A DNA stretch of 64,000 bases, from the NCBI GenBank assembly GCA_900540375.1, contig UQFS01000014.1, forward strand, positions 17,863 to 81,862. The letters run 5' to 3'. Position numbers and translations under genes: made by a program. The number at the start of each line of letters is the position of its first letter. The stretch's first letter is position 1. The notes below the pieces were generated by a model. It was not told where the DNA came from. It made no database searches and saw nothing but the letters and a program-made list of their open reading frames with translations. The DNA is from an uncultured Prevotella sp. (GTDB lineage Bacteria > Bacteroidota > Bacteroidia > Bacteroidales > Bacteroidaceae). Shown piece after piece: positions 4,037 through 39,400 of the stretch.

Positions 4037-6598
4037 ATGAACACCAAACTATTACTCTTCTCTACATCGCTTTTCATTGCAGCCTCACTGCCGTCGGCAG
4101 TTTGGGGACAGCGCCAGCAGGCTTCCTACGAGATTGCCGGACGCGACACTACATGTCAACTATTTCTCTATTCTCCCGAACCTACGAAAGGATTGCATGT
4201 TGCCTACTTCACCGATCACGACCAGTGGCAGGACTTGGGACAGCTCTGCAGTTCTGATTATGGTGCATGGGGCAGTGAGAAGAAAATGTATTCGCCTTAT
4301 GTCATTCAGGCTCAGGACGGTACATGGCGATTGCTTTTTTCCGTCAATAACTATGCACCTTGCTTTGCAGCTGCCTACAGTGAGGACTTGGTAACGTGGC
4401 GCCCACAGGACTATCCGCGTGTCAAAGAGAAGGGTGTGTTGGAGCCGATCATGTTCCAGATGGATCCCGACAACATCGACATCTATTTCAAGGCTAAAGA
4501 CGGTACCCGTCATTATGTCCAGGCATCTAATGACTTCCGCCAATTCACGGAATCCGCTGAGGCAAGCACGATAGAAGATGCAGCCTGGATGCGTGATACA
4601 GCAACCGTCGCCGGTACTACCTTTCAGGGCAATGCCTTCGACGTGCCTAAGCTGCAGTTGGATTATCTCTTCCAGTATTTCGATGCCATGGCCAATGATG
4701 CCCGCATGAGTGCTGAGACGATGAGTGGTGATGCGCAGCGCTTTGCGTCTCTCACTTCACCACTAAAGACGACCCTGACTATTGACCCGTCGAAGCAGAA
4801 GGCGATCAGTGATCGGCTGATGGGCGTTTTCTTCGAGGACATCAGCTATGCGGCCGACGGTGGCCTCTATGCCGAACTGATTCAGAACCGCGATTTCGAA
4901 TATACGTCCGACGACCACCGGGGGTGGGATGCTACGACAGCATGGAAGAGCAATCATCCGATTCGCATCAGCACGGCTGAGCCGCTGAGCACCAACAATC
5001 CTCACTATGTGCTCCTGGCCAAGCAAGACACACTCTATAATACGGGGTGGGGAAGTGTGATGGCCGAGCCACTCCGGCAGTTCGACTTCTCTGTCTTTGC
5101 CTGCTGCAAGAATGGACGCAAGAGTCAGTTGTTGGTGTGCCTTGTCGACGACAAGGGTGTAATGCTCGCAAAAGAGAAGATAAAGGTCGAGGGGGAGGGT
5201 TGGCAGCGCTATGCCCTGCCTCTGATCATTGACAAGAAAGCCGTGAAGAGTCAGGTCAGACTCATGCTGACACCCCTGAAAGAAGACAGCGTCGCCGTTG
5301 ACATGGTAAGCCTCTTCCCCCATGATACCTTTAAGGGACACGGGCTTCGCAAAGACCTGGCTGAGGCCATCGCTGCCCTTCATCCTCGGTTCGTACGCTT
5401 CCCTGGTGGCTGCATGAGCCATGGTCAGGGACTCGACAACATTTATCACTGGAATGAGAGCGTCGGCCCCTGGCAAGACCGCAAGCCCGCGAAGAACATC
5501 TGGGGTTATCATCAGACACGTGGCTTAGGCTTCTATGAGTATTTCCAGTTCTGTGAGGACATCGGCGCGGAGCCGCTTCCTGTGTTGGCTGCTGGCGTCC
5601 CTTGTCAGAATTCTGCTGCTGATAAGGATGGCTACGGCGGTCAGCAAGGTGGTATCCCAATGGCCGACATGCCGGCTTATTGTCAGGAGATCCTCCATAT
5701 GATCGAGTGGGCCAATGGTGATCCGGTCACTTCGAAATGGGCCAAAATGCGCGCCGACGCAGGTCATCCGGCACCGTTCCACCTTAAATATATAGGTATA
5801 GGCAACGAAGATCTCGTGTCCACTACCTTTGAGGAGCGCTATGAGATGATTTGCAAAGCCATCAAACAGAAGTATCCCGACATCATCGTCTGTGGTACGG
5901 TGGGTCCCTTCCATAATCCTTCGGCCGACTACATTGAGGGCTGGCGCTTCGCCAAAGCCCATCACGATCTGATCGACATGGTGGACGAGCATTACTACGA
6001 GTCGCCGGGATGGTTCTTGCATCATCAGGACTACTACGACGACTATGACCGAAAGGGGCCAAAGGTCTATCTCGGCGAATGGGCTTCCCGTGATCGCCGT
6101 GTGGAGAATGCGTTGGTCGAGGCCATCCATCTGTGCAATGTCGAGCGCAATGGCGATATCGTCAGCATGGCAAGTTATGCTCCCTTGCTCTGCAATGAGG
6201 CTCATCAGAACTGGAATCCCGACATGATCTACTTCAATTCCGACAGCATCACGGCGCTCACTCCCAGCTACTACACTCAGAAGTTGTGGGGCAACAGTGC
6301 CGGTGACCGCTATCTTGCTTCCCGTTTCTCTTTGCCCGAGAGTATTCGCTATCGTGTGGCATCAAGTGTCGTTCGAGACCAGAAGACGGGTACCACGTGG
6401 GTGAAACTCGTCAACGCCTTGCCACAATCCTTGACAGTGGAGGTAAAGGGAATGGCGATTCCCTCGGAAGCTGAAGTTGTCGGTTTCAGCGGACAGCCCA
6501 ACGATAAGAATGTAAAGGTCAAGATTACTCGTGTCAGTGGTTCCACGCTCACGCTCAAGCCCTATTCTGTGGAAGTGATCACCATACCTCGGAAATAG
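4037..6598 (+). CDS. Secreted GH51-family alpha-L-arabinofuranosidase with N-terminal accessory domain
   Basis: 853 aa. It has an N-terminal signal peptide (MNTKLLLFSTSLFIAASLPSAVWG). It carries the GH51 hallmarks RFPGGCMSHG and IGIGNEDL (catalytic Glu in GNE). Confidence 0.72.
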   Translation: MNTKLLLFSTSLFIAASLPSAVWGQRQQASYEIAGRDTTCQLFLYSPEPTKGLHVAYFTDHDQWQDLGQLCSSDYGAWGSEKKMYSPYVIQAQDGTWRLLFSVNNYAPCFAAAYSEDLVTWRPQDYPRVKEKGVLEPIMFQMDPDNIDIYFKAKDGTRHYVQASNDFRQFTESAEASTIEDAAWMRDTATVAGTTFQGNAFDVPKLQLDYLFQYFDAMANDARMSAETMSGDAQRFASLTSPLKTTLTIDPSKQKAISDRLMGVFFEDISYAADGGLYAELIQNRDFEYTSDDHRGWDATTAWKSNHPIRISTAEPLSTNNPHYVLLAKQDTLYNTGWGSVMAEPLRQFDFSVFACCKNGRKSQLLVCLVDDKGVMLAKEKIKVEGEGWQRYALPLIIDKKAVKSQVRLMLTPLKEDSVAVDMVSLFPHDTFKGHGLRKDLAEAIAALHPRFVRFPGGCMSHGQGLDNIYHWNESVGPWQDRKPAKNIWGYHQTRGLGFYEYFQFCEDIGAEPLPVLAAGVPCQNSAADKDGYGGQQGGIPMADMPAYCQEILHMIEWANGDPVTSKWAKMRADAGHPAPFHLKYIGIGNEDLVSTTFEERYEMICKAIKQKYPDIIVCGTVGPFHNPSADYIEGWRFAKAHHDLIDMVDEHYYESPGWFLHHQDYYDDYDRKGPKVYLGEWASRDRRVENALVEAIHLCNVERNGDIVSMASYAPLLCNEAHQNWNPDMIYFNSDSITALTPSYYTQKLWGNSAGDRYLASRFSLPESIRYRVASSVVRDQKTGTTWVKLVNALPQSLTVEVKGMAIPSEAEVVGFSGQPNDKNVKVKITRVSGSTLTLKPYSVEVITIPRK

Positions 6599-6865: not shown

Positions 6866-7981
6866 ATGAAAAAGTTATTTACCTTGATGGCTGCAGCTTT
6901 GGTAGCTGCTGGCGCATCTGCACAGACTGTGCAGGAAAGCAAGACATTCGACAACATCTATGTTGGCGTGAATGGCGGTGTGGCTACAAAGACAACTGGC
7001 CATGCTTGGATGAAGGGTCTCGATCCTAACTTTGGCATTCGTGTGGGCCGTTGGTTCACTCCTGTCTTTGGTCTCGCTGCTGAGAGCAACGCATATTTCT
7101 CAAATAAGCCCGCCAACTCTTTCGGTACCACTGTTCGTGCTATGAACACGAGCCTGTTGGCTACTGTCAACCTCAGCAACTGGTTTGGTGGCTATCTGGG
7201 TGAGCCTCGCTCATTCGAGGTCGTGCCTGTCTTCGGTTTCGGCTGGTATCACAGTTTCGGCAACAGCGCAGTTGCTAACCGCACTTGGAACGCTCTCCAG
7301 ATCGCTCAGGCCAATCCCGATGACGTTGCTGCAACCTATTTTGCAAAGAGAAATGCCCTGACTTCTAAGGCTGGCATCGACTTCGCTTTCAACCTCGGTG
7401 AGGCTAAGGCATGGCAGGTATACGTTGAACCTTCTATCACATGGGTTCTCAATGGCTTCGACGGTGAGCAGAAGGTTGCTTACGATATCAACAAGAGCTT
7501 CGTACAGCTCAACGCTGGTGTTGTTTACAAGTTCAATAACAGCAATGGCACACATAACTTCAAGATTGTGAAGCCTTACGACCAGGCAGAGATCGATCAG
7601 CTCAACAGCACGATCAACGACCTGCGCAACGAGTTGGCTAAGAAGCCTAAAGAGGTTGTCAAAGAGGTTGTGAAAGAGGCTCCTGTTCCTCAGGTGGTGA
7701 AGGTTGAGAACCTTGTCTTCGTTACATTCGCTCAGGGCAAGAGCAATCTTACCAAGGATGCTAAGAAAGCTCTTGACGGTGTGAAGAGCGGCAAGCACGT
7801 TCAGATCGTTGGTACTGCTTCTCCAGAGGGTAGCAAAGAGATCAACGACAAGCTGTCTCAGGCTCGTGCCGATGAGGTTGCTAAGTATCTCCAGAACAAT
7901 GGTGTCGTAGTCGATGAGGCTGCAGGTAAGGGTGTTCAGGGTAATACATCCAACCGTCTGGCTGTTGTTTACGTGAAGTAA
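6866..7981 (+). CDS. OmpA-family outer-membrane protein (Omp41/PG32-like beta-barrel plus C-terminal OmpA peptidoglycan-binding domain)
   Basis: 371 aa. The signal peptide is MKKLFTLMAAALVAAGASAQ. The C-terminus has an OmpA-like domain (FAQGKSNLTKDAKKALDGV...IVGTASPEGSKEINDKLSQARADEVAKYL). Confidence 0.8.
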   Translation: MKKLFTLMAAALVAAGASAQTVQESKTFDNIYVGVNGGVATKTTGHAWMKGLDPNFGIRVGRWFTPVFGLAAESNAYFSNKPANSFGTTVRAMNTSLLATVNLSNWFGGYLGEPRSFEVVPVFGFGWYHSFGNSAVANRTWNALQIAQANPDDVAATYFAKRNALTSKAGIDFAFNLGEAKAWQVYVEPSITWVLNGFDGEQKVAYDINKSFVQLNAGVVYKFNNSNGTHNFKIVKPYDQAEIDQLNSTINDLRNELAKKPKEVVKEVVKEAPVPQVVKVENLVFVTFAQGKSNLTKDAKKALDGVKSGKHVQIVGTASPEGSKEINDKLSQARADEVAKYLQNNGVVVDEAAGKGVQGNTSNRLAVVYVK

Positions 7982-8006
7982 TCGTTTCACAAACATATCC
8001 ATTTGC

Positions 8007-8044
8007 TCCCTGCTCGTAGTTACGATGGGCAGGGAGTTTTTTTG
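8007..8044 (+). terminator. Rho-independent terminator after the OmpA gene
   Basis: The stem ctccctgc ... gcagggag is followed by a run of 7 T. Confidence 0.6.
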
Positions 8045-8258
8045 TCCCATACCTCAACCTTTCGGAATTGATATGCCCTATACGCTTTTTTATATCTTGT
8101 CCGGTTGTTGAATAAACTGACAAAAAAGTGGGTCTGAGAATGCGATTCTCAGAATCAAAGCATCTCTTGCTCTGATTTTCGCAATTTTTGAGAGTTTTTT
8201 ATAACTCATTGACTAATAGTTAGATACGAATAGGTTCATTATTGTAGCATTATGAAAG

Positions 8259-8304
8259 AGGTACTTTGACGAAAAATTCTCTAGAGAATTTTTCGTCAAA
8301 GTAC
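8259..8304. repeat. Near-perfect 46-bp palindrome (ggtactttgacgaaaaattctc ta gagaatttttcgtcaaagtacc)
   Basis: Read directly from the sequence: two 22-bp perfectly complementary arms around a central TA. Confidence 0.8.
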
Positions 8305-8315
8305 CTTTCTGATGT

Positions 8316-8432
8316 TGTCATCTCGGTTATTTCTACTGGTCATCTCGGTTATTTCACCCGGTCATCTCGCCTTTTTCATCCTATCATCTCACCTTTTTGA
8401 TCCTGTCATCCCGCTTATTTTTCATTTTGATC
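8316..8432. repeat. Five degenerate tandem direct repeats of ~22 bp (consensus about tgGTCATCTCGgTTaTTTCatcc)
   Basis: The units are tgtcatctcggttatttctac / tggtcatctcggttatttcaccc / ggtcatctcgcctttttcatcc / tatcatctcacctttttgatcc / tgtcatcccgcttatttttcattttgatc, head to tail with no spacers. Confidence 0.75.
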
Positions 8433-8631
8433 TTCCTTTTTCCGAGTTTTCAGCTCGGATGCTTCTCTATAATGTGTTAAAAGGTTGACAGACTTTTGTC
8501 AATAAGTTTGTTTTTCGAAAGGTCATGCTGAAAGGGACATGTCATAATAGTTGTTAGGTACTTTCAGCCGCCTCTGTCGCTGTCTCTGGAAACGAGTATA
8601 AGGAAACTTATATTGGCTTTTAAGTGAAACA

Positions 8632-8672
8632 CTCCGCTATGCGGAATAAAGAATATAACCGGATATAGAGAA
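8632..8672. repeat. Left terminal inverted repeat of the restriction-modification island (CTCCGCTaTGCGGAATAAAGAATATAACCGgATAT...)
   Basis: It matches the reverse complement of 12343-12384, with about 29 bp near-perfect (1 mismatch) plus imperfect extension. Confidence 0.75.
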
Positions 8673-8844
8673 TATAAAAATGACCGAATATCAAGAATGT
8701 AAATAGTTTATAAGAACGCTAATGGTTTAAAGTAAGTTACAATAAATGTGTAAATAGGGATTGAAAAGGAAAAAACATCAGATAAAGTTGGAGAGTTCAC
8801 GGAAAAATCCTATTTTGCAAAAAGCTAAACGAAAGGAATAAGTT

Positions 8845-9093
8845 ATGAATGCAATATCAATGAGCAATTTATGGACTTATCTGCAAGGATTGTCTTTGAC
8901 TGCTGACAATTGGCAATGGTTGGCGGAAAAGACATCCATGATGTCTATGTCGGTCGACTCTGCTAATAAAGGAATTGCTGGTAAAAAGAAATACCGACTG
9001 TCTCCGAGAATGAAGAAGCTGATGGGCAGTGTAAAAATCAATCCGCAAGATATGGAAGGTGATGATAGACTAAAATACATTTTAAGCAAGTAA
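8845..9093 (+). CDS. Hypothetical small protein (82 aa) inside the R-M island, opposite strand to the R-M genes
   Basis: ORF only. No motif recognised. Confidence 0.2.
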   Translation: MNAISMSNLWTYLQGLSLTADNWQWLAEKTSMMSMSVDSANKGIAGKKKYRLSPRMKKLMGSVKINPQDMEGDDRLKYILSK

Positions 9094-9202
9094 TGAGAAA
9101 AATATTTCTTGATACCAATGTGATGCTCGACTCTGTATTGGATTGAGTAATTTAGGCCAACAACATTTTAGATACTTAGGTACAGTAAAGCTCACGGCAG
9201 TT

Positions 9203-9700
9203 TTAATCATTGGGCGAGGGTTCAGCTGCAATTAGTGATGTCTCTTCTATCGTTTTGTAATGCTTTGCATGGTTTTCGAGAAAAATGCGGTTGAGGGTGA
9301 AGGCAAGGCTCTTCAGTGTCTGTTCTTTTTTTTGTTTTTTGAGCTGACATTCCCAAACGGTGATGCAATGCCAGCCCATCTTTGCTAACTGCTGTTGCTC
9401 TTCTCTGTCACGCTCTTTGTTCCGGCTTATCTTCTTTTGCCAAAAATCAGTGTTGGTCTGAGGCAGTTTGAAGTCTTTGCATCCTTCGTGTCCATGCCAA
9501 AAGCAACCGTTGACAAAGATGCATGTGCGGTATTTCCTCAGCACCAAGTCGGGATGCCCGGGCAGTCTTGGGTCGTTGAGACGATAGCGGAAGCCACGCC
9601 GCCAAAGCCAGTGCCGCACAATCAGCTCGGGACGTGTGTCTTTGCTTCGTACGGCTGCCATATTCCGATGTCGCTCAGCGGGCGTGTGGTTGTCCATCAT
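9203..9700 (-). CDS. vsr: Very-short-patch-repair endonuclease Vsr (T:G mismatch endonuclease)
   Basis: 165 aa. PELIVRHWLWRRGFRYRLN...GHPDLVLRKYRTCIFVNGCFWHGHEGC is the classic Vsr core. It lies directly downstream of a C5-cytosine methyltransferase, as in dcm-vsr. Confidence 0.9.
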   Translation of the reverse strand: MMDNHTPAERHRNMAAVRSKDTRPELIVRHWLWRRGFRYRLNDPRLPGHPDLVLRKYRTCIFVNGCFWHGHEGCKDFKLPQTNTDFWQKKISRNKERDREEQQQLAKMGWHCITVWECQLKKQKKEQTLKSLAFTLNRIFLENHAKHYKTIEETSLIAAEPSPND

Positions 9701-9707
9701 CTAATTG

Positions 9708-10904
9708 CTATACTATCAGATGCTTCAGTCTGCTTTCGCTTTCTTTCTCTCTGACAAAACCGATGAACTGCCTGAGATCGATGATAGAGGATCTGTATTC
9801 TTGGGGATAGTTCTTGATATATGTGCCGGGCACGACAAGATGGACTTTTTCATCTGCCATTTCTTTCAGCTGGTTTTTTGAGATTGTTGGCTGTAGCGTG
9901 AACAGATGCTTTTCCGGAATACGGTTTGCCTCATTGATGACTTGGCGCCAACGATCCTTGCAGGTGGTTTTAGCTGCAAGCGAAACAAGTAAGGCTTCGG
10001 GGAAATTGAAATTATGGTAGCATTGTCCATCCGGAAATATGAAATCAGGACGCTTCTTCTCCTCTGTTACCACCTGCTCTTCATAAATGATGTTGCTTGC
10101 TTCAAAAACAGAAGCAAGATGATGCTCAAGCGACTTCCCGGCTCTTGACTTGCGGCGATTCAGAACCTTATTGGCAAAATCAACGAACGACGAGACGTCT
10201 TTGAATGTATTCCCGATAATTGGCATGTAAAGTTTATGTTCCACCATTCTGAAAAGCGTATATTCGGTATTAACCCATTTCAGTAAGACTTCATCAGGCT
10301 TAGCAGCTATTTTATTATCATTCAGTTTGAAGGCTTGGTTATAGCAGTCACGAGCCGTTTGGGCCATAACCGTAGTCTCCGGAAATGATTTAATATGCTC
10401 GACGAAATAAGAAAGCATATTGTCTAGCTCAGAATCGGGTAGCTGCCCATCAACCTTTTGTATAATCTTGTTAGCGTCTTCCGGTGACAAATTGTAGTAA
10501 CTGAGAAAGCCATCAATGTCTTCTTCTGTTGACAAAACCCAAGCTTCGTAGTTCTCTATGTCTTGCTGAGCTAATACCAGCAAATCCCCTACATGTTCAT
10601 CACGAAGCCATTCAAAACCTCTGCCAAAACGAGTGATGCGGCTTTCATTACGCGTACCAACACCATAGTAAACAATACGGCTGTTCGTTATATAGCCATC
10701 CTGCCATTTTATTTTGATAAAAATATCGGCGTTGCACCCTATCTTGGCTTTATCACCCAAAATAATACCTTGCGCATCTTTCGGCAGATAGAAGCCTGAT
10801 TGATGGGATCCGGTCTTGCCCGCATCGTTTGGGGTTATGTAATGGCAAAAGGCACAATGAGAATTCTGAACACTCTCAATGGCTTGGATTAGCAATTCGG
10901 TCAT
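9708..10904 (-). CDS. Type II restriction endonuclease, EcoRII-like (predicted CCWGG-type, effector-domain plus catalytic domain)
   Basis: 398 aa; EcoRII is about 404 aa. The N-terminal segment PNDAGKTGSHQSGFYLPK resembles the EcoRII N-terminal effector domain as I recall it. The gene context is EcoRII/Dcm-like MTase plus Vsr. Family from memory and context, not a search. Confidence 0.55.
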   Translation of the reverse strand: MTELLIQAIESVQNSHCAFCHYITPNDAGKTGSHQSGFYLPKDAQGIILGDKAKIGCNADIFIKIKWQDGYITNSRIVYYGVGTRNESRITRFGRGFEWLRDEHVGDLLVLAQQDIENYEAWVLSTEEDIDGFLSYYNLSPEDANKIIQKVDGQLPDSELDNMLSYFVEHIKSFPETTVMAQTARDCYNQAFKLNDNKIAAKPDEVLLKWVNTEYTLFRMVEHKLYMPIIGNTFKDVSSFVDFANKVLNRRKSRAGKSLEHHLASVFEASNIIYEEQVVTEEKKRPDFIFPDGQCYHNFNFPEALLVSLAAKTTCKDRWRQVINEANRIPEKHLFTLQPTISKNQLKEMADEKVHLVVPGTYIKNYPQEYRSSIIDLRQFIGFVREKESESRLKHLIV

Positions 10905-10907
10905 AGG

Positions 10908-12173
10908 TTATTTTATTTTTAATGTCTTGATAATCTGTTCTGCTACTGCTGTAATTAGAGGCACGACGACTGAGTTTCCGCATTGCCGGTAGGCTTGAAC
11001 GTCGCTGACAGCATTAATGATATAATTGTCGGGATAGCCCATGAGCCGGGCACATTCACGTGGTGTCAGCTTTCTTGGATTCATACCCTCCTGCGGAATC
11101 AATATTTCGGAGCCATCCTTATAATATCTTGCGCTCAAAGTACGAGTGATCCTATCAAGATCAACCATGCCAAAACCAAAGCCGTTGCCTTTTGCTTTCT
11201 GTCTTATGGCATAGTTTTGAAGGTAATTCCAAAGCTTGTCAGAAAGCGTGTATTTGGGATCGACATCTTCTTGAAGAATATCTCTTACTGTCGTTGTAGC
11301 TTCTTTTTGTTCCGGGAAAGAGAATTCCTCCTTGCCTCCATATCTTTTGCGGTCAAAGCCCACGATCATGATACGCTCTCTATGCTGAGGAACATACATT
11401 TTACCATCCATCACGAGATAATGGACAGAATAGTCAAGCTCCTCAAGCACCTCACGAATCACTTTGAATGTGTTGCCCTTGTCATGGGATACAAGATTCT
11501 TTACGTTCTCAAGAAAGAAGGCTTTGGGGCGATAACGCTTTAGAATTTCTGCAACATCGAAAAAGAGTGTCCCTTGCGTCTTGTCCTCAAATCCAGTGGG
11601 GCGCCCTAAACTATTTTTCTTTGCTACGCCAGCAATGGAAAATGGCTGGCATGGGAAACCTGCGCAAAGTATATCAAAGCCCTTCGGGATGAAACTTTTG
11701 GTGTTTTTTTTTGTTATGTCGCCAAAAGGCATTTCACCGAAATTTGCTAAGTATGTCTTTTGTGAGAATTTATTCCATTCTGATGAAAACACGCATTTGC
11801 CCCCATTTGCCTGCATCGCTAATCTGAATCCGCCAATTCCCGCAAACAAGTCTATGAATGTGAACTTTGGATGCTCGGGAGTTGGGAAGGGTACTTTGAA
11901 GAAGTTGGCAAAAAGGTCGGACTGCATGGGTTCGGCAACAGCATCAACTATGTCCTTGTGATCATATTCGATTGTATTGTCCTTGCTTTTCTTAGCTTCC
12001 AGCCAATCTTCAGCTAACTGGACAATCTCATCACGGGTGTTGTAGTCTGCATTTTCAGAGTTGTGGGCATAGTGAGTCAATACGGCCAGGCAGTTGTCCA
12101 AGCTTGTCTGTCCGTAAACTATGAGTCCGTCTTCTGTGATTTCTTCCGGATATTTTGTGATTTCATTTTTCAT
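10908..12173 (-). CDS. DNA (cytosine-5) methyltransferase, Dcm/M.EcoRII-like
   Basis: 421 aa. It has motif I FIDLFAGIGGF, motif IV GFPCQPFSIAG (PCQ), motif VI ENVKNL and a C-terminal QCGNSV. Confidence 0.92.
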   Translation of the reverse strand: MKNEITKYPEEITEDGLIVYGQTSLDNCLAVLTHYAHNSENADYNTRDEIVQLAEDWLEAKKSKDNTIEYDHKDIVDAVAEPMQSDLFANFFKVPFPTPEHPKFTFIDLFAGIGGFRLAMQANGGKCVFSSEWNKFSQKTYLANFGEMPFGDITKKNTKSFIPKGFDILCAGFPCQPFSIAGVAKKNSLGRPTGFEDKTQGTLFFDVAEILKRYRPKAFFLENVKNLVSHDKGNTFKVIREVLEELDYSVHYLVMDGKMYVPQHRERIMIVGFDRKRYGGKEEFSFPEQKEATTTVRDILQEDVDPKYTLSDKLWNYLQNYAIRQKAKGNGFGFGMVDLDRITRTLSARYYKDGSEILIPQEGMNPRKLTPRECARLMGYPDNYIINAVSDVQAYRQCGNSVVVPLITAVAEQIIKTLKIK

Positions 12174-12193
12174 TGGATAATTCTTTCAGCATG

Positions 12194-12201
12194 CAAATAT
12201 A
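12194..12201 (-). promoter_or_regulatory. Candidate -7 promoter element (TAtaTTTG on minus strand) for the methyltransferase gene
   Basis: The reverse complement of caaatata is tatatttg, about 20 nt upstream of the M gene start. Confidence 0.3.
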
Positions 12202-12342
12202 CAAACTTTTTCCGACTTATCCAACTCCTTGTATCTGTTTGTTGTTTTACTGCTCTTTGCTATTATAGTCAACACGCTTGTTTTTCTTTTAACGTGTCAT
12301 CCTTAATGGCATCAAAAAGATTAACGAATATCGAGAATATAT

Positions 12343-12384
12343 TTTCTTAATATTCGGTTATATTCTTTATTCCGCAGAGCGGAG
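12343..12384. repeat. Right terminal inverted repeat of the restriction-modification island
   Basis: cggttatattctttattccgcagagcggag is the reverse complement of the left repeat at 8632-8672. Confidence 0.75.
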
Positions 12385-12482
12385 CGTTAGTTTGCACAAC
12401 TATCTTTAGTATTCTTGTGTCGGCCTCACACTCTTGTTACTTCCAAAAACTTTGAAGTCGGTCTCTTTTTTTCTTTATAGTT

Positions 12483-13262
12483 CTATAGCTTTCTTCTGCC
12501 AAAGAAGTATTGTCCTTTATGCTTGGTTCTGTTACCAAACTCAATGGCGTGGTGCGGGCAATGATGATAGCAGGCAAAGCAAGTCATGCATTGACCATTG
12601 TGAATCCAGCGAGGCTCTTTGCCAAGTCCGCCGTCGATGTCGTGGACGGGACAGACCGAGGCACAGATGCCGCATTTCACACAACGGTCTGAAACGATAC
12701 GGAAAGGCTTGTCGGTGATCAGCCAGTGGCAGAAGGCGGCACCGAGGACGCGGCTGTTGATGCGTGGCCAACGGCCGATGGTCAGACGCTCTACGTGCTT
12801 TTGATGTTGTTCGATCAGTTGGGCAAACTCTTTCAGGTCTTCCGCAGCCTTGTCCTGCTTGGCTTTCTCACGTTCTTTCTTGTCCACATCCATGAAGGGC
12901 AGGCCGACATACGACTCCGGCATCAGCAACGAGAAGGCTGCATCGAGCGTGATGCCTTTCTCTGACAACTTGTGACGGAAGATGTCCATAGCTTCACCTA
13001 CCGTGTCACCGGCAGTGCAGAGCGCATAGACATAGTGCCCGGTGGCATCGATCACGAGTTGCTTGACAAAGTCAACGACGATGCGCGGAGGACGCCAGCC
13101 ATGGATCGGGAAGCAAAATCCAATATCTCCGCCCGGTTCTAACTGAGCGATGAAAGGCTCGGCGCTGTTCTTGGCGATGTTGATGAGCCGGTCGCTGGTG
13201 TAGAAGCCCAACTGTTTGGCGGCCCAGGCGGTATTACCCGTTGCGGAGAAGAAAAAGATCAT
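12483..13262 (-). CDS. Flavodoxin-like / 4Fe-4S ferredoxin fusion protein (EFR1-family style)
   Basis: 259 aa. The N-terminus MIFFFSATGNTAWAAKQL is flavodoxin-like. The C-terminus has two CxxCxxC...CP ferredoxin motifs (CVKCGICASVCP, CMTCFACYHHCP). Confidence 0.65.
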   Translation of the reverse strand: MIFFFSATGNTAWAAKQLGFYTSDRLINIAKNSAEPFIAQLEPGGDIGFCFPIHGWRPPRIVVDFVKQLVIDATGHYVYALCTAGDTVGEAMDIFRHKLSEKGITLDAAFSLLMPESYVGLPFMDVDKKEREKAKQDKAAEDLKEFAQLIEQHQKHVERLTIGRWPRINSRVLGAAFCHWLITDKPFRIVSDRCVKCGICASVCPVHDIDGGLGKEPRWIHNGQCMTCFACYHHCPHHAIEFGNRTKHKGQYFFGRRKL

Positions 13263-32305: not shown

Positions 32306-32421
32306 GCGTATATATAAACTTCGGTTGTTGTGGTTTGGATAGGGTTTATTATGGTTTATTAGGGCTGATATTGTCACCCAAGTGTCACCGGAAAGTGTCA
32401 CCTAAAACTAAGTTATGCGAT

Positions 32422-33561
32422 ATGACGAAAAAGAATTATGATTTCGAGCCTGTACATATCAGGTCAAAGAAGATTTCGGGCGGCAGGAGGTCGCTCTACC
32501 TTGACATCGTGAGTGATGGCGTGAGGTCAAGGGAGTTTTTGAAGCTTTACCTTTTGCCGGAGGACGGGAAGGGTGCCAAGACTGCCAACAGTGCAGTGAT
32601 GAGAATGGCGGAAGAGATGAAGGCCAAGCGCACACTGGAGGTGATGCGTGATGGTTTACAGATTGAGGATCATTCTAAGGGCAGCGTGGTACTCGTGGAT
32701 TGGCTAAAGGAGCAGCAGGCGTACTACAAGGCGCATGACAACAAGAACTATTCCCGGACGATAGGTAATCTCATCGTGCATCTGGGTAAACATGCCAAGA
32801 AGGGGCTGAGGCTGAAAGATGTTACTCCGAAGTTCCTGAGGGGTTTCCTTGAATACCTCCGGGGCGACAACGTGAACAAGTATGGCGGCAGACTGTGCCC
32901 TGAGACTATCTACACGTACTTCACGGTGTTCGCTATCCTGATGAACAAGGCGGTGAGGCTGGAGATGATACCAAGCAACCCGTTTCACAAGCTGTCGCAG
33001 GCGGAAAAGCCTCAGCGGCGGACGAAGAAACGGGAGTTCCTGACAATGGAGGAACTACAGAAGCTTGCAAAGGCGGAGTGCGACGACTGGCGGGTGAAGA
33101 AGGCTTTCATGTTCTGCTGCTTCACCGGACTCCGTTACATCGACGTGTCGAGGTTGAAGTGGAAGCACATTCAGAAGCTTGGCGACGGAACGTACCAGAT
33201 GGACATGATGCAGAAGAAGACGCAGGAGCCAGTGTATGTGCCGTTGTCGAAGAATGCCATCAGGTGGTTGCCGGAGAGGGGCGACAACGGCAGGGAGAAC
33301 TACGTCTTCCAGTTCCAGGACCGCAGCATCATCTACAAGTATTTGCAGGATTGGGGCAAGCGTGCCGGGATAGAGAAGCACCTCATCTTCCACATGAGCC
33401 GCCACACGTGCGCCACGATGTTGCTGTACTATGGTGCGGACCTCTACACGGTGAGCAAGATACTTGGGCATACGTCGATAAAGAGTACGCAGATATACGC
33501 AAAGGTCGTTGACGGCATGAAAAGGAAGGCTGTTGACAATGTACCAGAGTTGGACGTATAG
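32422..33561 (+). CDS. Tyrosine-type site-specific integrase; the ORF is open from 32335 but the probable start is ATG at 32422
   Basis: It has the C-terminal catalytic box HMSRHTCATMLLYYGADLYTVSKILGHTSIKSTQIYAKV (R...HxxR...Y). The N-terminal arm-binding-like domain is typical of Bacteroidales phage/CTn integrases. Confidence 0.9.
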   Translation: MTKKNYDFEPVHIRSKKISGGRRSLYLDIVSDGVRSREFLKLYLLPEDGKGAKTANSAVMRMAEEMKAKRTLEVMRDGLQIEDHSKGSVVLVDWLKEQQAYYKAHDNKNYSRTIGNLIVHLGKHAKKGLRLKDVTPKFLRGFLEYLRGDNVNKYGGRLCPETIYTYFTVFAILMNKAVRLEMIPSNPFHKLSQAEKPQRRTKKREFLTMEELQKLAKAECDDWRVKKAFMFCCFTGLRYIDVSRLKWKHIQKLGDGTYQMDMMQKKTQEPVYVPLSKNAIRWLPERGDNGRENYVFQFQDRSIIYKYLQDWGKRAGIEKHLIFHMSRHTCATMLLYYGADLYTVSKILGHTSIKSTQIYAKVVDGMKRKAVDNVPELDV

Positions 33562-34435: not shown

Positions 34436-34915
34436 ATGGGAATAGTAGGCTCAGCAGTAGGCGCAGCTGGTGCCGTTTTCGGCGGTATCAGCGCAAGCAA
34501 GGCGATCAAGAAGATGAAGCGCAACATCGAGGCTCAGCGCAAAAAGAACCAAGACTGGTACGACCAGCGGTATAACGAGGATGCCACACAGCGTGCTGAC
34601 GCTCAGCGTGTGCTCAGTCAGACGCAGGACATGCTGAAACGTCAGACAGACGCTGCGGCGGGCAGTGCTGCCGTTGGCGGTGGCACAGACGAGAGCGTGG
34701 CGCAGGCAAAGGCTCAGGCTAACGAGACTTTGGGCAATGTGATGAGCAACATCAACGCTCAGGCAGACGCACGCAAGGACGAGATAGAGCAGACCTATCA
34801 GGCTAACGACAATGCCTTTGTGGAGCAGCTGAACAACTTGGAGCAAAAAAAGGCTGAGAATATCAGTCAGGCTGTTCAAGGCGTTACTAATGCAGCGAGC
34901 AAAATGCCGTGGTGA
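34436..34915 (+). CDS. Hypothetical protein with a glycine-zipper N-terminal helix and a coiled-coil body
   Basis: 159 aa. The N-terminus is MGIVGSAVGAAGAVFGGISASKAI and the rest is Q/A-rich and predicted helical. Confidence 0.35.
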   Translation: MGIVGSAVGAAGAVFGGISASKAIKKMKRNIEAQRKKNQDWYDQRYNEDATQRADAQRVLSQTQDMLKRQTDAAAGSAAVGGGTDESVAQAKAQANETLGNVMSNINAQADARKDEIEQTYQANDNAFVEQLNNLEQKKAENISQAVQGVTNAASKMPW

Positions 34916-36470: not shown

Positions 36471-39400
36471 ATGCCATTAGATAAAGGTAAACTTCAAAAG
36501 TTGTACTCCACTCTCCAGCAGGGCGGATACTCACAGAGCTATGATGAGTTTGAGAAAGGCTTCACGGGTAATGACAACTACCCCAACAGAAAGAAGGTCT
36601 ATGACCTCCTGACCGAGCATGGAGCTAACATCGGTAAAACGTATGAGGACTTCATGGGTAAGATGCAGGCACCGCCTCAGCCTTCCCAGCCTCAGCATCA
36701 GAACACCCCGGCACCGGCTCCTAAGCCTCAGCCGAAGCCAAAGGGCGGCGGCATGACTGCGGCTGAGCGTGCGCAATTCATCCGGAATGCCCAAGGCATT
36801 GTGCATCAAAGTGCAGCCGGACTCCAACGCGCGAAAAACCAGATGGACTATGCCAACAGCAACCGTGGGTTGAAAGTGGACCCCGTGCATTTGGGCCAGA
36901 ACGCGAAGGTAGTCAGGCGACATGTTAACGGCACGGTGGCAAAACCGCGTCCCGTCTTCGATGTTGCTCCTGAACAGCAGCCGGGCGACACCTACTTGAC
37001 CGAGAGCGGCAATGAGTTTGCCAGCCGAGCCGAGGCAGACACCGAGCAGAATGCCGTTGACCAGTATCGCTATGACCAGAGCGAGACCGGGCAGTTGAAT
37101 AATGCCTATGCCGAAGCAGAGAGGCTTGACAAGCTCTTGGAACAGCATGGTAAGGAACTCGACGATGAGAATAGAGACAAATGGTGGCGAGATCTTCCCC
37201 GTGGCGGTGGCGGTGCTGTCAGTACGATGAACGCCAACGACAACAACGGTCGCATGACCGATACCGAATACCTCAATTTATTGGCAGCACGCAAGAAGGT
37301 TGACGAGCAGATTAGAGACCTGAAGGCGGCGCGAGACGAGAAGACAGGCACCTTCCTTGGCGGACTGTGGCGTGGCTTCCGCGACTATGCCTTTGACCCG
37401 TCGAACTGGGACAACGGCTATAGTGACTTGCTGACTACCTCAGCCATGCTCCGTGCAAAGACAGGAGCTGCACAGACACCGAGAGAGAAAGCTTCCGAGC
37501 GCATGATGATGGAGGATACCTACAAGGCAGGTGTTGCAGCTCAGCAGGCAGAAAAGGTGCTTGGCAATGGCTACCGCTTTATGAGGATATGCGCACAGTC
37601 GCTGCCATTCGCACTCCAGTTTATGGCAGGCAATGCAACCGGCATGATAGGCGGGCTGACAAGAGCCGGTGAGGGCATGGGCGTGAAGCTGGCCCGTAAG
37701 ATAGCCATCAAGCAGGGAGCCAACAACATGATGCGCAATATTGGTCGCAGCGTGTTGAAAAATACCGGCGTTGCGCTTGGTGACCTTGGAGCAGCCACTG
37801 CACTTTCAAATACTATTCAAGCAGCACAGACATGGGCTGACATAGGTCATAGATATGCTGGTGATGTTACCTACGACCCTAAAACCGGCGATTATAAGCT
37901 TGAAGGAGGCAAGAGCCTCGGACGTTCTATCTATGAAGGTGAAGCCAATTCTATCATTGAGAACTACACCGAGCAGCTTGGCGAGCACATGCACCTTGGC
38001 AAGTTTGCTTCTTCCGCATTAACGAAGATGGGACTTGGCAGAGTGAGCAACTGGTTTACCAAGGTCGGCAAGAGTGAGTTCATGCAGGGCGTGAACAAAT
38101 ACATGAAGATGGCTAGCTTCAATGGTTATCCGCAAGAAGTGATGGAGGAAGAGGTAGGCATACCCCTTCATGCCATCTTTGACGGTGGAAACAAGATGAG
38201 TGACTTGCTTGACGGCAGGCAGCAACTTGACATCGTAGGCGGCATGCTGTTCTCAATGGCAGGTATGGGCGGTGCGTCGATGGTGATGCAGGGCGGACAT
38301 AAGGCGGCAATGGCAGTCCAGTACCACCAAGACCAACACAAACTCGACAATGCCGATAAGGTAGCGTCGTTCAGGCTCACGGCAGACAAGTGGGCACCCA
38401 TCAAGGAAGAGATTGACGGTACTACCAATGAGGATTTCGGCAAGGTGATGAAGGATGTACTCAGCAATGACGAGCTATCCGACCAAGAGAAGCAAGCCGT
38501 GTGGGACTATGCCCAGCGGCTTGTCATCATGCGTGGGCATAACATGGGTCAGGAGGCTGCTACTCGCAACGGCATGACCGATAAGGAGACCAATGCAGCC
38601 AACGAGAGCTACACACAAGGCTACAACACCACCGACGCAACGGCGATGAACGATGCGAAGAACAGACTGGCAGCTGCTCAGCAGAAGTTCGATGAATATA
38701 TGGAGCAGACGGGCCGCGAGCGTTGGGAAGGTGAACCGAGTATGCAGGACATACAGCATCGTCACCGAGACGCACAGAGTCTATTGAATGACAAGTGGGC
38801 TGACGGCACTCCAGTATATAATGAAAACGACGAGGAATACAAGCTTGCTCAGGCTGTTGTCAATGCCCAGCAGGAGTATGAGGGCATGATGCAGCGTGTG
38901 AGGGACGATATAGACGACGAGGTTCAGCAGACAGGAGCCATCTATGACAGCCGTACGAATGACCAAGGCGTTATTCAGTCGGCGACGCTGAAGGCGCAGA
39001 ACCCGGACGGCACCGACAAGAAGGTGTATATCACCAGCGGCAATGTCGTAATGACCGACGACGGGAAGAGCGTTGACAATCAGAAGAGCGACATGAGTAT
39101 TGTCGTTGTCGATGAGGACGGCAAGGTTCAAATGATTTCTCCTGATGAACTATTCTCCCTTGACACGCCGATAGACGGTGCTCAGGCAAAACAGCAAGCC
39201 ATTGACGCTATCCAGCAGAGCAAGGCGCAGGAAGCCGCAGATAAGATAAACGGCAAGGTCAATCTTACCGCAGGCAACACCTATACCCTTACGGACAACA
39301 CCGGACAGCAGATAGAGGCTACCATCGTTGCTGACGGTCAGACAGGAGCCGTGCAGAACCCTGACGGCACCGTTAACGTGAGCATGAACGGAAAGGTTGT

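What the first reader, a model, noticed from the sequence alone, without database searches (positions are those of the whole stretch)
8632..12384. Complete EcoRII-like restriction enzyme, Dcm-like methyltransferase and Vsr module as a discrete island bounded by ~40 bp inverted repeats
Three co-oriented genes make a functionally closed system. The C5-methyltransferase has motifs I, IV and VI. The 398 aa restriction enzyme has an EcoRII-like N-terminus. Vsr repairs the T:G mismatches made by 5mC deamination. They are flanked by CTCCGCTaTGCGGAATAAAGAATATAACCG at 8632 and its reverse complement at 12355-12384, and each repeat carries a small CCGC-NNN-GCGG hairpin. The island lies between ompA and a ferredoxin gene and looks AT-richer than its neighbours. 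No transposase is inside. This looks like a mobilisable or relic-transposon R-M cassette, and the repeats may be recombination substrates.
Basis: partly seen in the sequence, partly recalled or inferred. Interest (0 to 1): 0.75.

Follow-up and report, generated by a model that had tools for sequence, protein, structure and literature searches.

The report
EcoRII-type restriction island between repeat copies
An ordinary three-gene DNA-defence module (restriction enzyme, methylase and repair nickase) sits in a strain-variable spot of a human-gut Prevotellaceae chromosome, and its flanking "inverted repeats" are two copies of a small palindromic repeat common in related genomes, not the private ends of a transposon.

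Summary
M (10908-12173), an EcoRII-family R (9708-10904) and Vsr (9203-9700) lie on the minus strand. They are flanked by a 49-nt, 88% inverted repeat (8628-8676 / 12340-12388), in DNA of 42% GC against 51-52% in the flanks.

The transposon reading is only partly supported.
- The repeats are arms of a ~110-nt MITE-like palindromic unit. It occurs as solo copies at about 10 other intergenic sites in Hallella genomes and metagenomes.
- The right repeat belongs to a whole but decayed inverted unit (12286-12392). The left one is a unit cut at its centre (8627-8705).
- Strains without the R-M genes carry an LRR gene instead and keep the left unit, complete in L016.
- The variable segment is 8706-12468, there is no target duplication, and the island always sits at this locus.
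- The R-M core (9243-12228) occurs elsewhere at 78% nt identity, and on a 10.3-kb plasmid, without the unit.
- The island is a mosaic: a VapBC-like toxin-antitoxin relic plus the R-M core.

In related genomes the same repeat arms bracket an MmeI-type R-M gene and HigBA.

CCWGG is depleted in the window (observed/expected 0.44). Verdict: a known kind of system with moderate interest.

The parts
8627..8705 (+). Left repeat: the 'a' arm plus centre of a MITE-like palindromic unit, cut at its centre.
   Evidence: The unit profile hits 8627-8675, model positions 8-56. Homology with the R-M-less allele L016 runs to 8705, after which L016 continues with the other half of the unit. This copy is part of the resident backbone.
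8770..9139 (+). Relic of a VapBC-like toxin-antitoxin pair. The 82-aa antitoxin-like ORF (8845-9093) is intact. The PIN toxin gene starts at 9095 and is cut after about 15 codons (MRKIFLDTNVMLDSVLD*).
   Evidence: 79% nt identity to L094-L101. There the 81-aa homologue (80% aa) is followed by a 147-aa PF01850 PIN protein starting MKRIFLDTNVLLDSAL. Pfam, NCBIfam and PADLOC give no hit for the 82-aa ORF.
9203..9700 (-). vsr: very-short-patch T:G mismatch endonuclease, 165 aa.
   Evidence: PF03852 3.5e-31; TIGR00632 149 bits against a cut-off of 97.85; PDB 1CW0 5e-33.
9708..10904 (-). EcoRII-family type II restriction endonuclease, 398 aa, with an N-terminal effector domain and a C-terminal catalytic domain.
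   Evidence: EcoRII-N 2.5e-27 (residues 15-131) and EcoRII-C 1.8e-62 (residues 218-381). PDB 1NA6, residues 15-382 against 17-394, E = 3e-55. 36.5% aa identity to plasmid-borne EcoRII of Enterobacteriaceae over 90% of its length.
10908..12173 (-). Dcm-like C5-cytosine DNA methyltransferase, 421 aa.
   Evidence: PF00145 9e-93; TIGR00675 3e-95. Best solved relatives are 3LX6/3ME5 ('Cytosine-specific methyltransferase'), E = 3e-88, and the alignment includes the variable region.
9243..12228 (-). The R-M-Vsr core module shared with other genomes. It runs from 55 nt upstream of M to near the 3' end of vsr.
   Evidence: blastn gives 78% nt identity to L038/L039 and L042-L044 over exactly this span and nothing beyond it. 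Identity is 69% to plasmid L047/L048 over M-R. A promoter-like site lies at 12223-12196.
12286..12392 (-). Right repeat: a complete but decayed copy of the unit in inverted orientation.
   Evidence: The unit profile covers model positions 5-111, E = 1e-28. The alignment with solo units shows a deletion in the inner right arm. It folds weakly, z = -2.2, against -8 to -11 for solo units. It is absent from the LRR alleles.
12393..12468 (.). Allele-specific spacer between the right unit and the ferredoxin gene end.
   Evidence: Homology with the LRR alleles resumes only at 12469. Homology with a related species stops at 12483, the ferredoxin stop codon.

Best explanation
What it does.
The three genes are a type II, EcoRII-family restriction-modification system with its own repair function.
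- The Dcm-like enzyme most probably methylates the inner cytosine of CCWGG.
- The two-domain EcoRII-like nuclease cuts unmethylated CCWGG DNA. In this family the N-terminal domain keeps the enzyme inactive until a second site is bound.
- Vsr nicks at T:G mismatches made by deamination of 5-methylcytosine, so the host does not lose its CCWGG sites.

The domain architecture and homology are shown. The CCWGG specificity and the activity are inferred.

What the island is.
It is not a self-contained transposon. It is a mosaic of acquired DNA lodged in a repeat-rich intergenic hot spot between the OmpA and ferredoxin genes. It consists of a VapBC-like toxin-antitoxin relic whose toxin gene is cut off at the junction (an inferred insertion or deletion), the 3-kb R-M-Vsr core, and a decayed repeat copy.

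The 'inverted repeats' are the outer arms of two oppositely oriented copies of a ~110-nt MITE-like palindromic unit.
- Each terminal arm is ~45 nt: TTTTAACGC(T/A)CC, a small hairpin, then AAGAATATAACCGAATAT.
- As single-stranded DNA the unit folds into a three-way junction.
- The left copy is resident at this site and was broken at its centre, where the foreign DNA begins.
- The right copy belongs to the R-M allele.

How it moves (inferred).
Between species, the R-M core travels on other vehicles: a 10.3-kb mobilisable plasmid and integrated elements. Within this species, the R-M allele and the alternative LRR-gene allele are exchanged by homologous recombination in the conserved flanks. The centre of the palindromic unit acts as a fragile or recombination-prone point where foreign DNA is joined.
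For: Function:
- Pfam, NCBIfam, PADLOC and PDB matches for all three proteins.
- CCWGG is the second most depleted pentamer pair in the window: observed/expected 0.44, rank 3-4 of 1024. CCSGG is not depleted, at 1.09.
- Only one CCWGG lies in the island.

Strain-variable island:
- Among contigs carrying the identical OmpA protein, about 12 carry the R-M genes and about 6 carry an LRR_5 gene instead.
- Homology between the alleles runs to window 8659 (L010/L011) or 8705 (L016) and resumes at 12469.

The repeat is a family:
- Genome scan: 9 solo copies in Hallella mizrahii, H. absiana and a bin.
- Metagenome scan: 30 loci falling into about 11 sites. Most are solo, complete and orthologously conserved.
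- Anatomy, with compensatory hairpin variants CCGC/GCGG, CCAC/GTGG, CCATC/GATGG, TCATC/GATGA and GCCAT/ATGGC.
- Folds with z = -8 to -11.

The R-M core travels without the unit:
- 78% nt identity over 9243-12228 only.
- No unit hit in L038-L051.
- Circular 10,325-bp plasmid.

Mosaic structure: the toxin-antitoxin relic.

Breakpoints at the unit centre in independent cases: the window's left copy, L060 against L027, the split unit around MmeI, and the half unit in L072.

Fixed location: the exact R protein lies in the same context in all 24 contigs read.
Against: - The arrangement is exactly that of terminal inverted repeats, with both 'a' arms pointing outward.
- With only a handful of unit copies per genome, a second copy at the far edge of a 3.7-kb island is unlikely to be chance.
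- In related genomes the same arms form clean 55-nt inverted repeats with TTAA on both sides around an MmeI-type R-M gene.
- That cassette, arms included, is more diverged (86.5%) than its flanks (96-98%).

This suggests that arms and cargo can share a history. A relic non-autonomous transposon is therefore not excluded.

- No outgroup shows the ancestral state of the OmpA-ferredoxin site.
- Fragility at the palindrome centre is inferred only from where the breakpoints fall.
- The CCWGG specificity rests on homology and site depletion, not on a measurement.
Confidence: 0.55

Rival explanations
1. Relic non-autonomous transposon, in the manner of a mobile insertion cassette or a cargo-carrying MITE. 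The ~45-nt arms are terminal inverted repeats recognised by a transposase supplied in trans. The R-M genes, and earlier the toxin-antitoxin pair, are passengers. The solo ~110-nt units are deletion derivatives. The window copy has since decayed and become fixed in place.
For: - Outward-facing arms at both ends, 49 nt and 88% complementary.
- Family-wide arms with TTAA, or in L019 CTAA/CTAA, on both sides.
- An MmeI R-M gene between 55-nt near-identical arms with TTAA flanks, in two lineages.
- HigBA between arm remnants, with a ~40-nt duplication.
- Precedent for transposon-like R-M units without a transposase (PMC2853133).
Against: - No target duplication around the window island (GAAA against TTAG).
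- The R-M-less alleles keep the left arm, and in L016 a complete unit, instead of showing an empty site.
- The right-hand breakpoint is about 80 nt outside the right arm.
- The island and the MmeI cassette were each seen at one locus only.
- Homologues of the R-M core, the toxin-antitoxin pair and MmeI elsewhere lack the arms.
- Solo units are conserved at orthologous sites rather than polymorphic.
- Neither scan returned a pair of arms around a transposase gene.
- The right end is a whole unit, not a single arm, and it is decayed.
Confidence: 0.22
2. Site-specific cassette system. The unit is a recombination site for a tyrosine or serine recombinase encoded elsewhere. Its symmetric core is TCNAGAA-AATATA-TTCTNGA, with flanking GAATAT motifs. 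Defence cassettes (R-M, toxin-antitoxin) are inserted or exchanged at its centre, loosely as integron cassettes are exchanged at attC/attI or as Xer-dependent elements insert at dif.
For: - Independent junctions fall at the unit centre, model positions ~55-61: the window's left copy, L060 twice, L072, and L082-L088.
- The cargo is always defence or addiction genes: EcoRII-Dcm-Vsr, MmeI, HigBA, VapBC relic.
- The unit has the symmetric architecture typical of recombinase core sites.
Against: - The junction positions are close to each other but not shown to be identical to the nucleotide.
- No recombinase gene lies next to any copy.
- The only integrase in the window (32335-33561) belongs to a prophage 20 kb away.
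- The window's second copy is inverted, which would give inversion rather than excision. No inverted form was seen in about 40 contigs.
- The other boundary of the polymorphism (12469) is not in a unit.
- Centre breakpoints are equally expected from hairpin-tip cleavage of a palindrome.
Confidence: 0.1
3. Invertible (phase-variable) segment. Recombination between the two inverted arms flips the 3.7-kb R-M island and switches its expression.
For: - A 49-nt inverted repeat brackets the operon.
- From my own knowledge, not checked here: Bacteroidales use many invertible regions.
- Two Logan contigs (L005, L006) end inside the right repeat.
Against: - Every contig that spans the island has the same orientation.
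- The operon carries its own conserved upstream region and a promoter-like site inside the island, so flipping would not uncouple it.
- Contig ends at a short repeat are an expected assembly effect.
Confidence: 0.03
4. Coincidence. Two copies of a common intergenic repeat happen to lie on either side of an island that arrived by unrelated means.
For: - Solo units are scattered in intergenic regions.
- The R-M core travels without them.
Against: - Only about 3-4 exact-pattern copies occur per representative genome, and none elsewhere in this 64-kb window.
- The left junction of the foreign DNA lies exactly at the unit centre.
- A second R-M gene is bracketed in the same way elsewhere.
Confidence: 0.08

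Closest known systems
EcoRII / Dcm / Vsr of Enterobacteriaceae (type IIE R-M recognising CCWGG, with very-short-patch repair)
   Same: - The nuclease has the same two-domain architecture and aligns over its full length with the 1NA6 structure.
- The adjacent C5-methyltransferase has a 'Cytosine-specific methyltransferase' (3LX6/3ME5) as its best solved relative; that this entry is a Dcm is my own recollection, supported only indirectly by the NCBIfam dcm hits.
- The Vsr matches the E. coli Vsr structure.
- CCWGG is depleted in the host DNA.
   Different: - Only 36.5% aa identity to EcoRII.
- All three genes form one co-oriented cluster, M-R-vsr. From my own knowledge, in E. coli dcm-vsr is chromosomal and EcoRII is plasmid-borne.
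- The host is a gut Prevotellaceae species.
- Specificity and the need for multiple sites are untested.
Transposon-like R-M units flanked by long imperfect inverted repeats (Furuta, Abe and Kobayashi 2010, NAR 38:2428; PMC2853133)
   Same: R-M genes without a transposase lie between imperfect inverted repeats of tens of bp. The same open question applies: who moves them.
   Different: The defining comparison in that paper is that the inverted repeats are absent from the empty site and are flanked by an 8-bp target duplication. This fails here. One repeat aligns with the R-M-less genome, there is no duplication, and the repeats are not unique to the unit. By that paper's scheme the case falls under 'substitution'.
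MITEs and mobile insertion cassettes (MICs: IS ends around passenger genes, e.g. MIC231 of Bacillus cereus). The MIC comparison is from my own knowledge.
   Same: For the repeat unit:
- Small and non-coding, with ~45-nt terminal inverted repeats.
- Several intergenic copies per genome.
- TTAA-type flanks and strong secondary structure.
- Some copies enclose passenger genes.
   Different: - No parent IS or transposase is known.
- Copies are conserved at orthologous sites rather than polymorphic.
- Copy number is low.
- The passengers are defence genes.
R-M insertion with long target duplication (Kobayashi group; PMC2853133)
   Same: In L060 the block carrying HigBA is bracketed by a ~40-nt direct duplication that includes the outer hairpin of the unit arm.
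   Different: This was seen for the HigBA block in a related genome, not for the window's R-M island, whose repeats are inverted.

Membership tests
EcoRII-family type II restriction endonuclease | Two-domain protein: an N-terminal effector DNA-binding domain and a C-terminal PD-(D/E)XK catalytic domain | tested here: met
   PF09217 2.5e-27 (residues 15-131) and PF09019 1.8e-62 (residues 218-381). 1NA6 residues 17-394 aligned, E = 3e-55.
EcoRII-family type II restriction endonuclease | An adjacent cognate C5-cytosine methyltransferase | tested here: met
   M ends 4 nt upstream of R on the same strand. PF00145 9e-93; TIGR00675 3e-95.
EcoRII-family type II restriction endonuclease | Recognition of CCWGG | tested here: inconclusive
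   Indirect only. CCWGG observed/expected is 0.44, rank 3-4 of 1024 pentamers, while CCSGG is 1.09. The best solved relative of M is the 'Cytosine-specific methyltransferase' 3LX6/3ME5, Dcm-like by my own recollection. No cleavage or methylation data.
EcoRII-family type II restriction endonuclease | Type IIE behaviour: activation by a second recognition site | not testable with these tools
   Needs enzymology.
Vsr (very-short-patch repair endonuclease) | Vsr fold and family membership above curated thresholds | tested here: met
   TIGR00632 149.2 bits (cut-off 97.85); PF03852 107 bits (cut-off 27); 1CW0 5e-33.
Vsr (very-short-patch repair endonuclease) | Nicking 5' of the T in T:G mismatches within the methylase's site | not testable with these tools
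   Needs biochemistry.
Transposon-like R-M unit (criteria of PMC2853133) | Imperfect inverted repeats at both ends of the unit | tested here: met
   49 nt, 88% complementary. The 30-nt core has one mismatch, and 0 matches are expected by chance.
Transposon-like R-M unit (criteria of PMC2853133) | The inverted repeats do not align with the genome that lacks the unit (a clean empty site) | tested here: not met
   L010, L011 and L016 lack the R-M genes but keep the left repeat. L016 has a complete unit there.
Transposon-like R-M unit (criteria of PMC2853133) | A short direct target duplication outside the repeats | tested here: not met
   The flanks are ...AAGTGAAA|CACTCC and GGAGCG|TTAGTTTG, with no shared 4-8-mer.
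Transposon-like R-M unit (criteria of PMC2853133) | The repeats are unique to the unit, or the unit is found at more than one locus | tested here: not met
   The repeat occurs solo at about 10 other sites. The exact R protein lies in one context only. R-M homologues elsewhere lack the repeat.
MITE (applied to the ~110-nt repeat unit) | Small and non-coding, with terminal inverted repeats and several intergenic copies per genome | tested here: met
   ~110 nt with ~45-nt arms. Four copies in H. mizrahii and three in H. absiana by exact pattern.
MITE (applied to the ~110-nt repeat unit) | Target-site duplication | tested here: inconclusive
   TTAA lies on both sides of most copies. Because TTAA is a palindrome, it could equally be part of the arms. 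L019 has CTAA/CTAA as a direct repeat.
MITE (applied to the ~110-nt repeat unit) | Presence/absence polymorphism between close relatives, and a cognate transposase | tested here: not met
   Copies are conserved at orthologous sites across species. Neither scan found a member carrying a transposase. The sampling is limited to exact-pattern matches.

The most novel reading that the evidence does not exclude
The ~110-nt palindromic unit of Hallella-like Prevotellaceae defines a previously undescribed family of transposase-less cassettes. Its ~45-nt hairpin-bearing arms enclose defence or addiction genes: EcoRII-Dcm-Vsr here, an MmeI-type enzyme and HigBA in relatives. The cargo is either captured at the centre of the palindrome or moved in trans. 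The window island would be a decayed member of this family.
Probability: 0.2. Interest if true: 0.6.

Novelty: new member of a known kind. Interest (0 to 1): 0.35.

Why it matters
The R-M-Vsr module itself is textbook biology. It matters locally as a strain-variable barrier to phage and plasmid DNA in a prevalent human-gut Prevotellaceae species, and as a source of CCWGG methylation that will appear in methylome data.

The wider point concerns how R-M genes come to be flanked by inverted repeats, an association noted statistically in 2010. Here the repeats can be traced to a small palindromic repeat family. Its centre repeatedly coincides with the junctions of foreign DNA, and its arms bracket a second, unrelated R-M gene and a toxin-antitoxin pair in related genomes. 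If that association is mechanistic, it would offer a tractable example of how defence genes are inserted and exchanged without a linked transposase or integrase.

Tried and rejected
- Rfam search of 7900-12600 at E <= 1: nothing relevant, only a chance microRNA match to an unrelated palindrome.
- Viral-contig scan with the repeat pattern: 0 hits.
- The LRR_5 gene that replaces the R-M genes in some strains, compared with the LRR_5 gene next to the R-M genes on the 10.3-kb plasmid: only repeat-level similarity. The co-occurrence is taken as coincidence.
- Inversion of the island: no inverted form in any spanning contig.
- tRNA or tmRNA as an integration target: the only tRNA is at 1445-1519, far from the island.
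- Integrase or transposase in the window: the only recombinase is a prophage integrase at 32335-33561, and none lies in the +/-10-kb gene lists.
- Organism name from protein clusters: the sources give none.
- Plasmid collection, DNA level: only distant dcm matches.
- An empty site for the MmeI cassette and an outgroup for the OmpA-ferredoxin site could not be obtained. The related species found (L091-L093) has broken synteny right at the ferredoxin stop codon.
- A first regular-expression attempt to tabulate the hairpins failed. It was replaced by profile-anchored extraction.

Full report
1. THE OBSERVATION

The minus strand of 9203-12173 carries three tightly packed genes.
- M (10908-12173, 421 aa) is a full-length C5-cytosine methyltransferase: PF00145 9e-93, TIGR00675 3e-95.
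- R (9708-10904, 398 aa) has both EcoRII domains: EcoRII-N 2.5e-27 and EcoRII-C 1.8e-62. It aligns end to end with the EcoRII crystal structure 1NA6, E = 3e-55. It is 36.5% identical to plasmid-borne EcoRII of Enterobacteriaceae.
- Vsr (9203-9700, 165 aa) exceeds the curated thresholds of PF03852 and TIGR00632 and matches E. coli Vsr 1CW0.

The 30-nt repeat core occurs exactly twice in the window, in inverted orientation at 8632-8661 and 12355-12384, with none expected by chance. It extends to 49 nt at 88% complementarity. The island is 42% GC against 51-52% in the flanks. The description is therefore correct.

2. SPECIFICITY (INFERRED)

The best solved relative of M is the 'Cytosine-specific methyltransferase' 3LX6/3ME5, which I recall as a Dcm, and the alignment runs through the variable region. 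In the 64-kb window CCWGG is the second most depleted pentamer pair. Its observed/expected ratio under a maximal-order Markov model is 0.44, rank 3-4 of 1024. CCSGG is not depleted, at 1.09. This fits long exposure of the lineage to CCWGG restriction. It is not a measurement.

3. STRAIN COMPARISON

Contigs encoding the identical OmpA protein come from human-gut metagenomes and fall into two alleles.
- About 12 carry the 82-aa ORF, vsr, R and M.
- About 6 carry a single LRR_5 gene instead.

Homology between the alleles runs from the OmpA side up to window 8659 (L010, L011) or 8705 (L016). It resumes at 12469, 14 nt before the ferredoxin stop codon.

The left repeat is therefore part of the shared backbone. 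The right repeat and the ~80 nt outside it belong to the R-M allele. In a related species with 92% nt identity in the flank, homology stops exactly at the ferredoxin stop codon, followed by an IS256-like fragment. That position is a general synteny breakpoint.

The exact R protein was found only in this context, in 24 contigs read from 157 index blocks. All spanning contigs have the same orientation.

4. WHAT THE REPEATS ARE

4a. Distribution.
I scanned one genome from each of 185,579 species with CCRCNNNGCGGAATAAANAATATAAC. This returned 9 loci:
- four in Hallella mizrahii;
- three in H. absiana;
- two in a bin labelled Paratractidigestivibacter, whose contigs match the Hallella loci.
Each holds a single copy.

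The metagenome scan returned 30 loci that collapse into about 11 sites. Most are complete solo copies in intergenic regions between housekeeping genes, conserved at orthologous positions between species.

4b. Anatomy.
Alignment shows a ~110-nt unit. It has two ~45-nt terminal arms in inverted orientation: TTTTAACGC(T/A)CC, a small hairpin, (A/T)AT(A/C)AAGAATATAACCGAATAT, around a ~15-nt centre. Most copies are flanked by TTAA.

The small hairpins vary by compensatory changes: CCGC/GCGG, CCAC/GTGG, CCATC/GATGG, TCATC/GATGA and GCCAT/ATGGC. Solo units fold as a three-way junction with z = -8 to -11.

4c. The two window copies.
The right repeat is the 'a' arm of a whole unit in inverted orientation (12286-12392; E = 1e-28). 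That unit has lost part of its inner right arm and folds poorly, z = -2.2. The left repeat is the 'a' arm plus centre of a unit that is complete in L016 but in the window is cut at its centre, at 8705/8706. No other copy lies in the window. Rfam has no match.

5. THE CARGO IS A MOSAIC AND TRAVELS WITHOUT THE REPEATS

DNA homology to the closest R-M relatives covers only 9243-12228, at 78% nt identity. Amino-acid identities for M/R/Vsr are 91/83/76% with L039 and 89/83/79% with L042. Those relatives lie in other contexts:
- between HU-HIG and phage-like or integrative-element genes next to the nqr operon;
- between a SusD gene and a PDDEXK_2 gene;
- as M-R-LRR_5, at 74% and 67% aa identity, on a 10,325-bp plasmid with relaxase, NikA-like and ParA genes. 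Terminal overlaps and rotated contigs show that it is circular.

None of these loci contains the unit.

Window 8770-9139 is 79% identical to a toxin-antitoxin pair of another species. There the 81-aa homologue of the 82-aa ORF is followed by a 147-aa PIN protein. In the window the PIN gene stops after about 15 codons.

The island was therefore assembled from at least two sources. The junction between them truncated the toxin gene.

6. EVIDENCE THAT THE REPEAT IS NEVERTHELESS LINKED TO CARGO

L060 is 98.7% identical to H. mizrahii L027 over 4.4 kb. In L060 a 928-aa protein with all five MmeI domains lies between a left half-unit (4126-4183) and a right half-unit (7142-7197) in the same orientation. 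This is one unit split at its centre.

MmeI homologues of 86-88% aa identity in human-gut relatives (L082-L088) sit at the same M23-peptidase/GT2 locus. They lie between near-identical 55-nt arms with TTAA on both sides. The cassette, arms included, is 86.5% identical between L082 and L060, while the flanks are 96-98% identical.

In L060 a ~1-kb block carrying HigBA follows the cassette. It is bracketed by a ~40-nt direct duplication that includes the outer arm hairpin.

Other copies show further variation:
- Homology between L060 and L027 ends at a unit centre.
- L072 holds only a half unit.
- L024 has a 750-bp non-coding insertion inside a unit.
- L010 and L011 have the unit centre replaced by another short repeat.
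- L062 has three tandem units with a 156-nt period.

An 80% MmeI homologue in yet another context has no unit.

7. INTERPRETATION

The function is that of a standard EcoRII/Dcm/Vsr-type system.

For the architecture, the criteria of Furuta et al. 2010 (PMC2853133) separate transposon-like R-M units from substitutions. In a transposon-like unit the inverted repeats are absent from the empty site and a short target duplication is present. The window island fails both tests and also fails uniqueness of the repeats. It therefore classes as an allelic substitution at a hot spot.

I judge it most likely (about 0.55) that foreign DNA was joined at the centre of a resident palindromic unit. On this view the second, decayed unit belongs to the incoming or accreted DNA. 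The two alleles now spread by homologous recombination in the flanks.

A relic non-autonomous transposon is the main rival (about 0.22), because of the clean arm-bounded MmeI cassette. A recombinase-dependent cassette site (about 0.1), coincidence (about 0.08) and an invertible segment (about 0.03) follow.

8. COMPARISON AND NOVELTY

The R-M-Vsr module is a new, distant member of a well-known family. R-M genes between inverted repeats have been described. What is not described, as far as the literature searches show, is this Prevotellaceae repeat family and its association with defence cargo. That association rests on three loci and remains a lead.

Noticed in passing
window 8037-8626: A conserved non-coding element lies between the OmpA terminator and the left repeat. 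It has a minus-strand terminator-like hairpin (8133-8153) followed by TTTTTTGTCAGTTTAT, a perfect 48-nt palindrome (8259-8306) and five tandem 22-nt repeats GTCATCTCGGTTATTTC... (8317-8426). Related copies lie within 0.2-4 kb of the repeat unit at 8 or more other sites (L019, L023, L026, L058, L062, L072, L081, L082/L060). In L082 the hairpin sequence differs but the T-tract motif is kept. This may be an unannotated RNA gene or a protein-binding region. Rfam has no match.
   Followed up: partly
window 32335-63351: A prophage-like region lies next to the nqr operon: a tyrosine integrase (32335-33561), a T7 gp14-like protein (34436-34915), a single 5,627-aa ORF (36471-53354), a P22-like portal (55035-57089) and an SU10-like major capsid protein (61093-62607). 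The giant ORF was not analysed.
   Followed up: partly
window, whole: GGWCC is the most depleted pentamer pair (observed/expected 0.37), and GANTC (0.57) is also low. This suggests pressure from other restriction systems in this lineage.
   Followed up: no
L048-L051 (and L047): A circular 10,325-bp mobilisable plasmid from pig and human gut metagenomes. It carries a C5-methyltransferase, an EcoRII-like nuclease (67% aa identity to the window's), an LRR_5 protein, ParA, relaxase, a NikA-like protein and a 605-aa protein with no Pfam match. The index lists the protein in 204 blocks.
   Followed up: partly
L022 and L026: Two contigs of a bin labelled Paratractidigestivibacter (an actinobacterial genus name) match Hallella mizrahii and H. 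absiana loci over long stretches of the 1.5-kb flanks compared on each side of the unit, so they are probably mis-binned.
   Followed up: no
L010 11795-11905; L053 around 9240-9440; L055 around 1835-1870: A second short repeat family...GGGAGGGAATTGCAATACCC...CCCCTCTCCCCTTGGAGAGGGGTACGGGGGTGAGG, replaces the centre of the unit in L010 and L011 and abuts units in L053 and L055.
   Followed up: no
L060 3090-4125: A ~1-kb block with HigB/HigA is bracketed by a ~40-nt direct duplication (CATCTTTGATGGAGCGTT(T)AACCTTCAAGG...). This resembles the 'insertion with long target duplication' described for R-M genes.
   Followed up: partly
L024 3883-4600: A ~750-bp non-coding insertion rich in long hairpins lies inside a unit. 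It has terminal inverted repeats TCCTGACTTC(G/A)TCA and is absent from the orthologous site in L026.
   Followed up: no
L062 776-1197: Three complete units lie in tandem with a 156-nt period. The 46-nt spacer also follows solo units in L019 and L020, so the full repeat may be ~156 nt.
   Followed up: no
L005 and L006 (ends of contigs): Two Logan contigs stop about 10 nt into the right repeat. This is most simply an assembly break at a short inverted repeat or at the allele branch point.
   Followed up: no
L038/L039 4373-13875: The closest R-M-Vsr relative (83% aa for R) lies in an integrated element with Bro-N/ANT, DUF3127 and BT4734-like genes. This element sits directly after the nqr operon, apparently the same chromosomal neighbourhood in which the window carries its prophage.
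   Followed up: no
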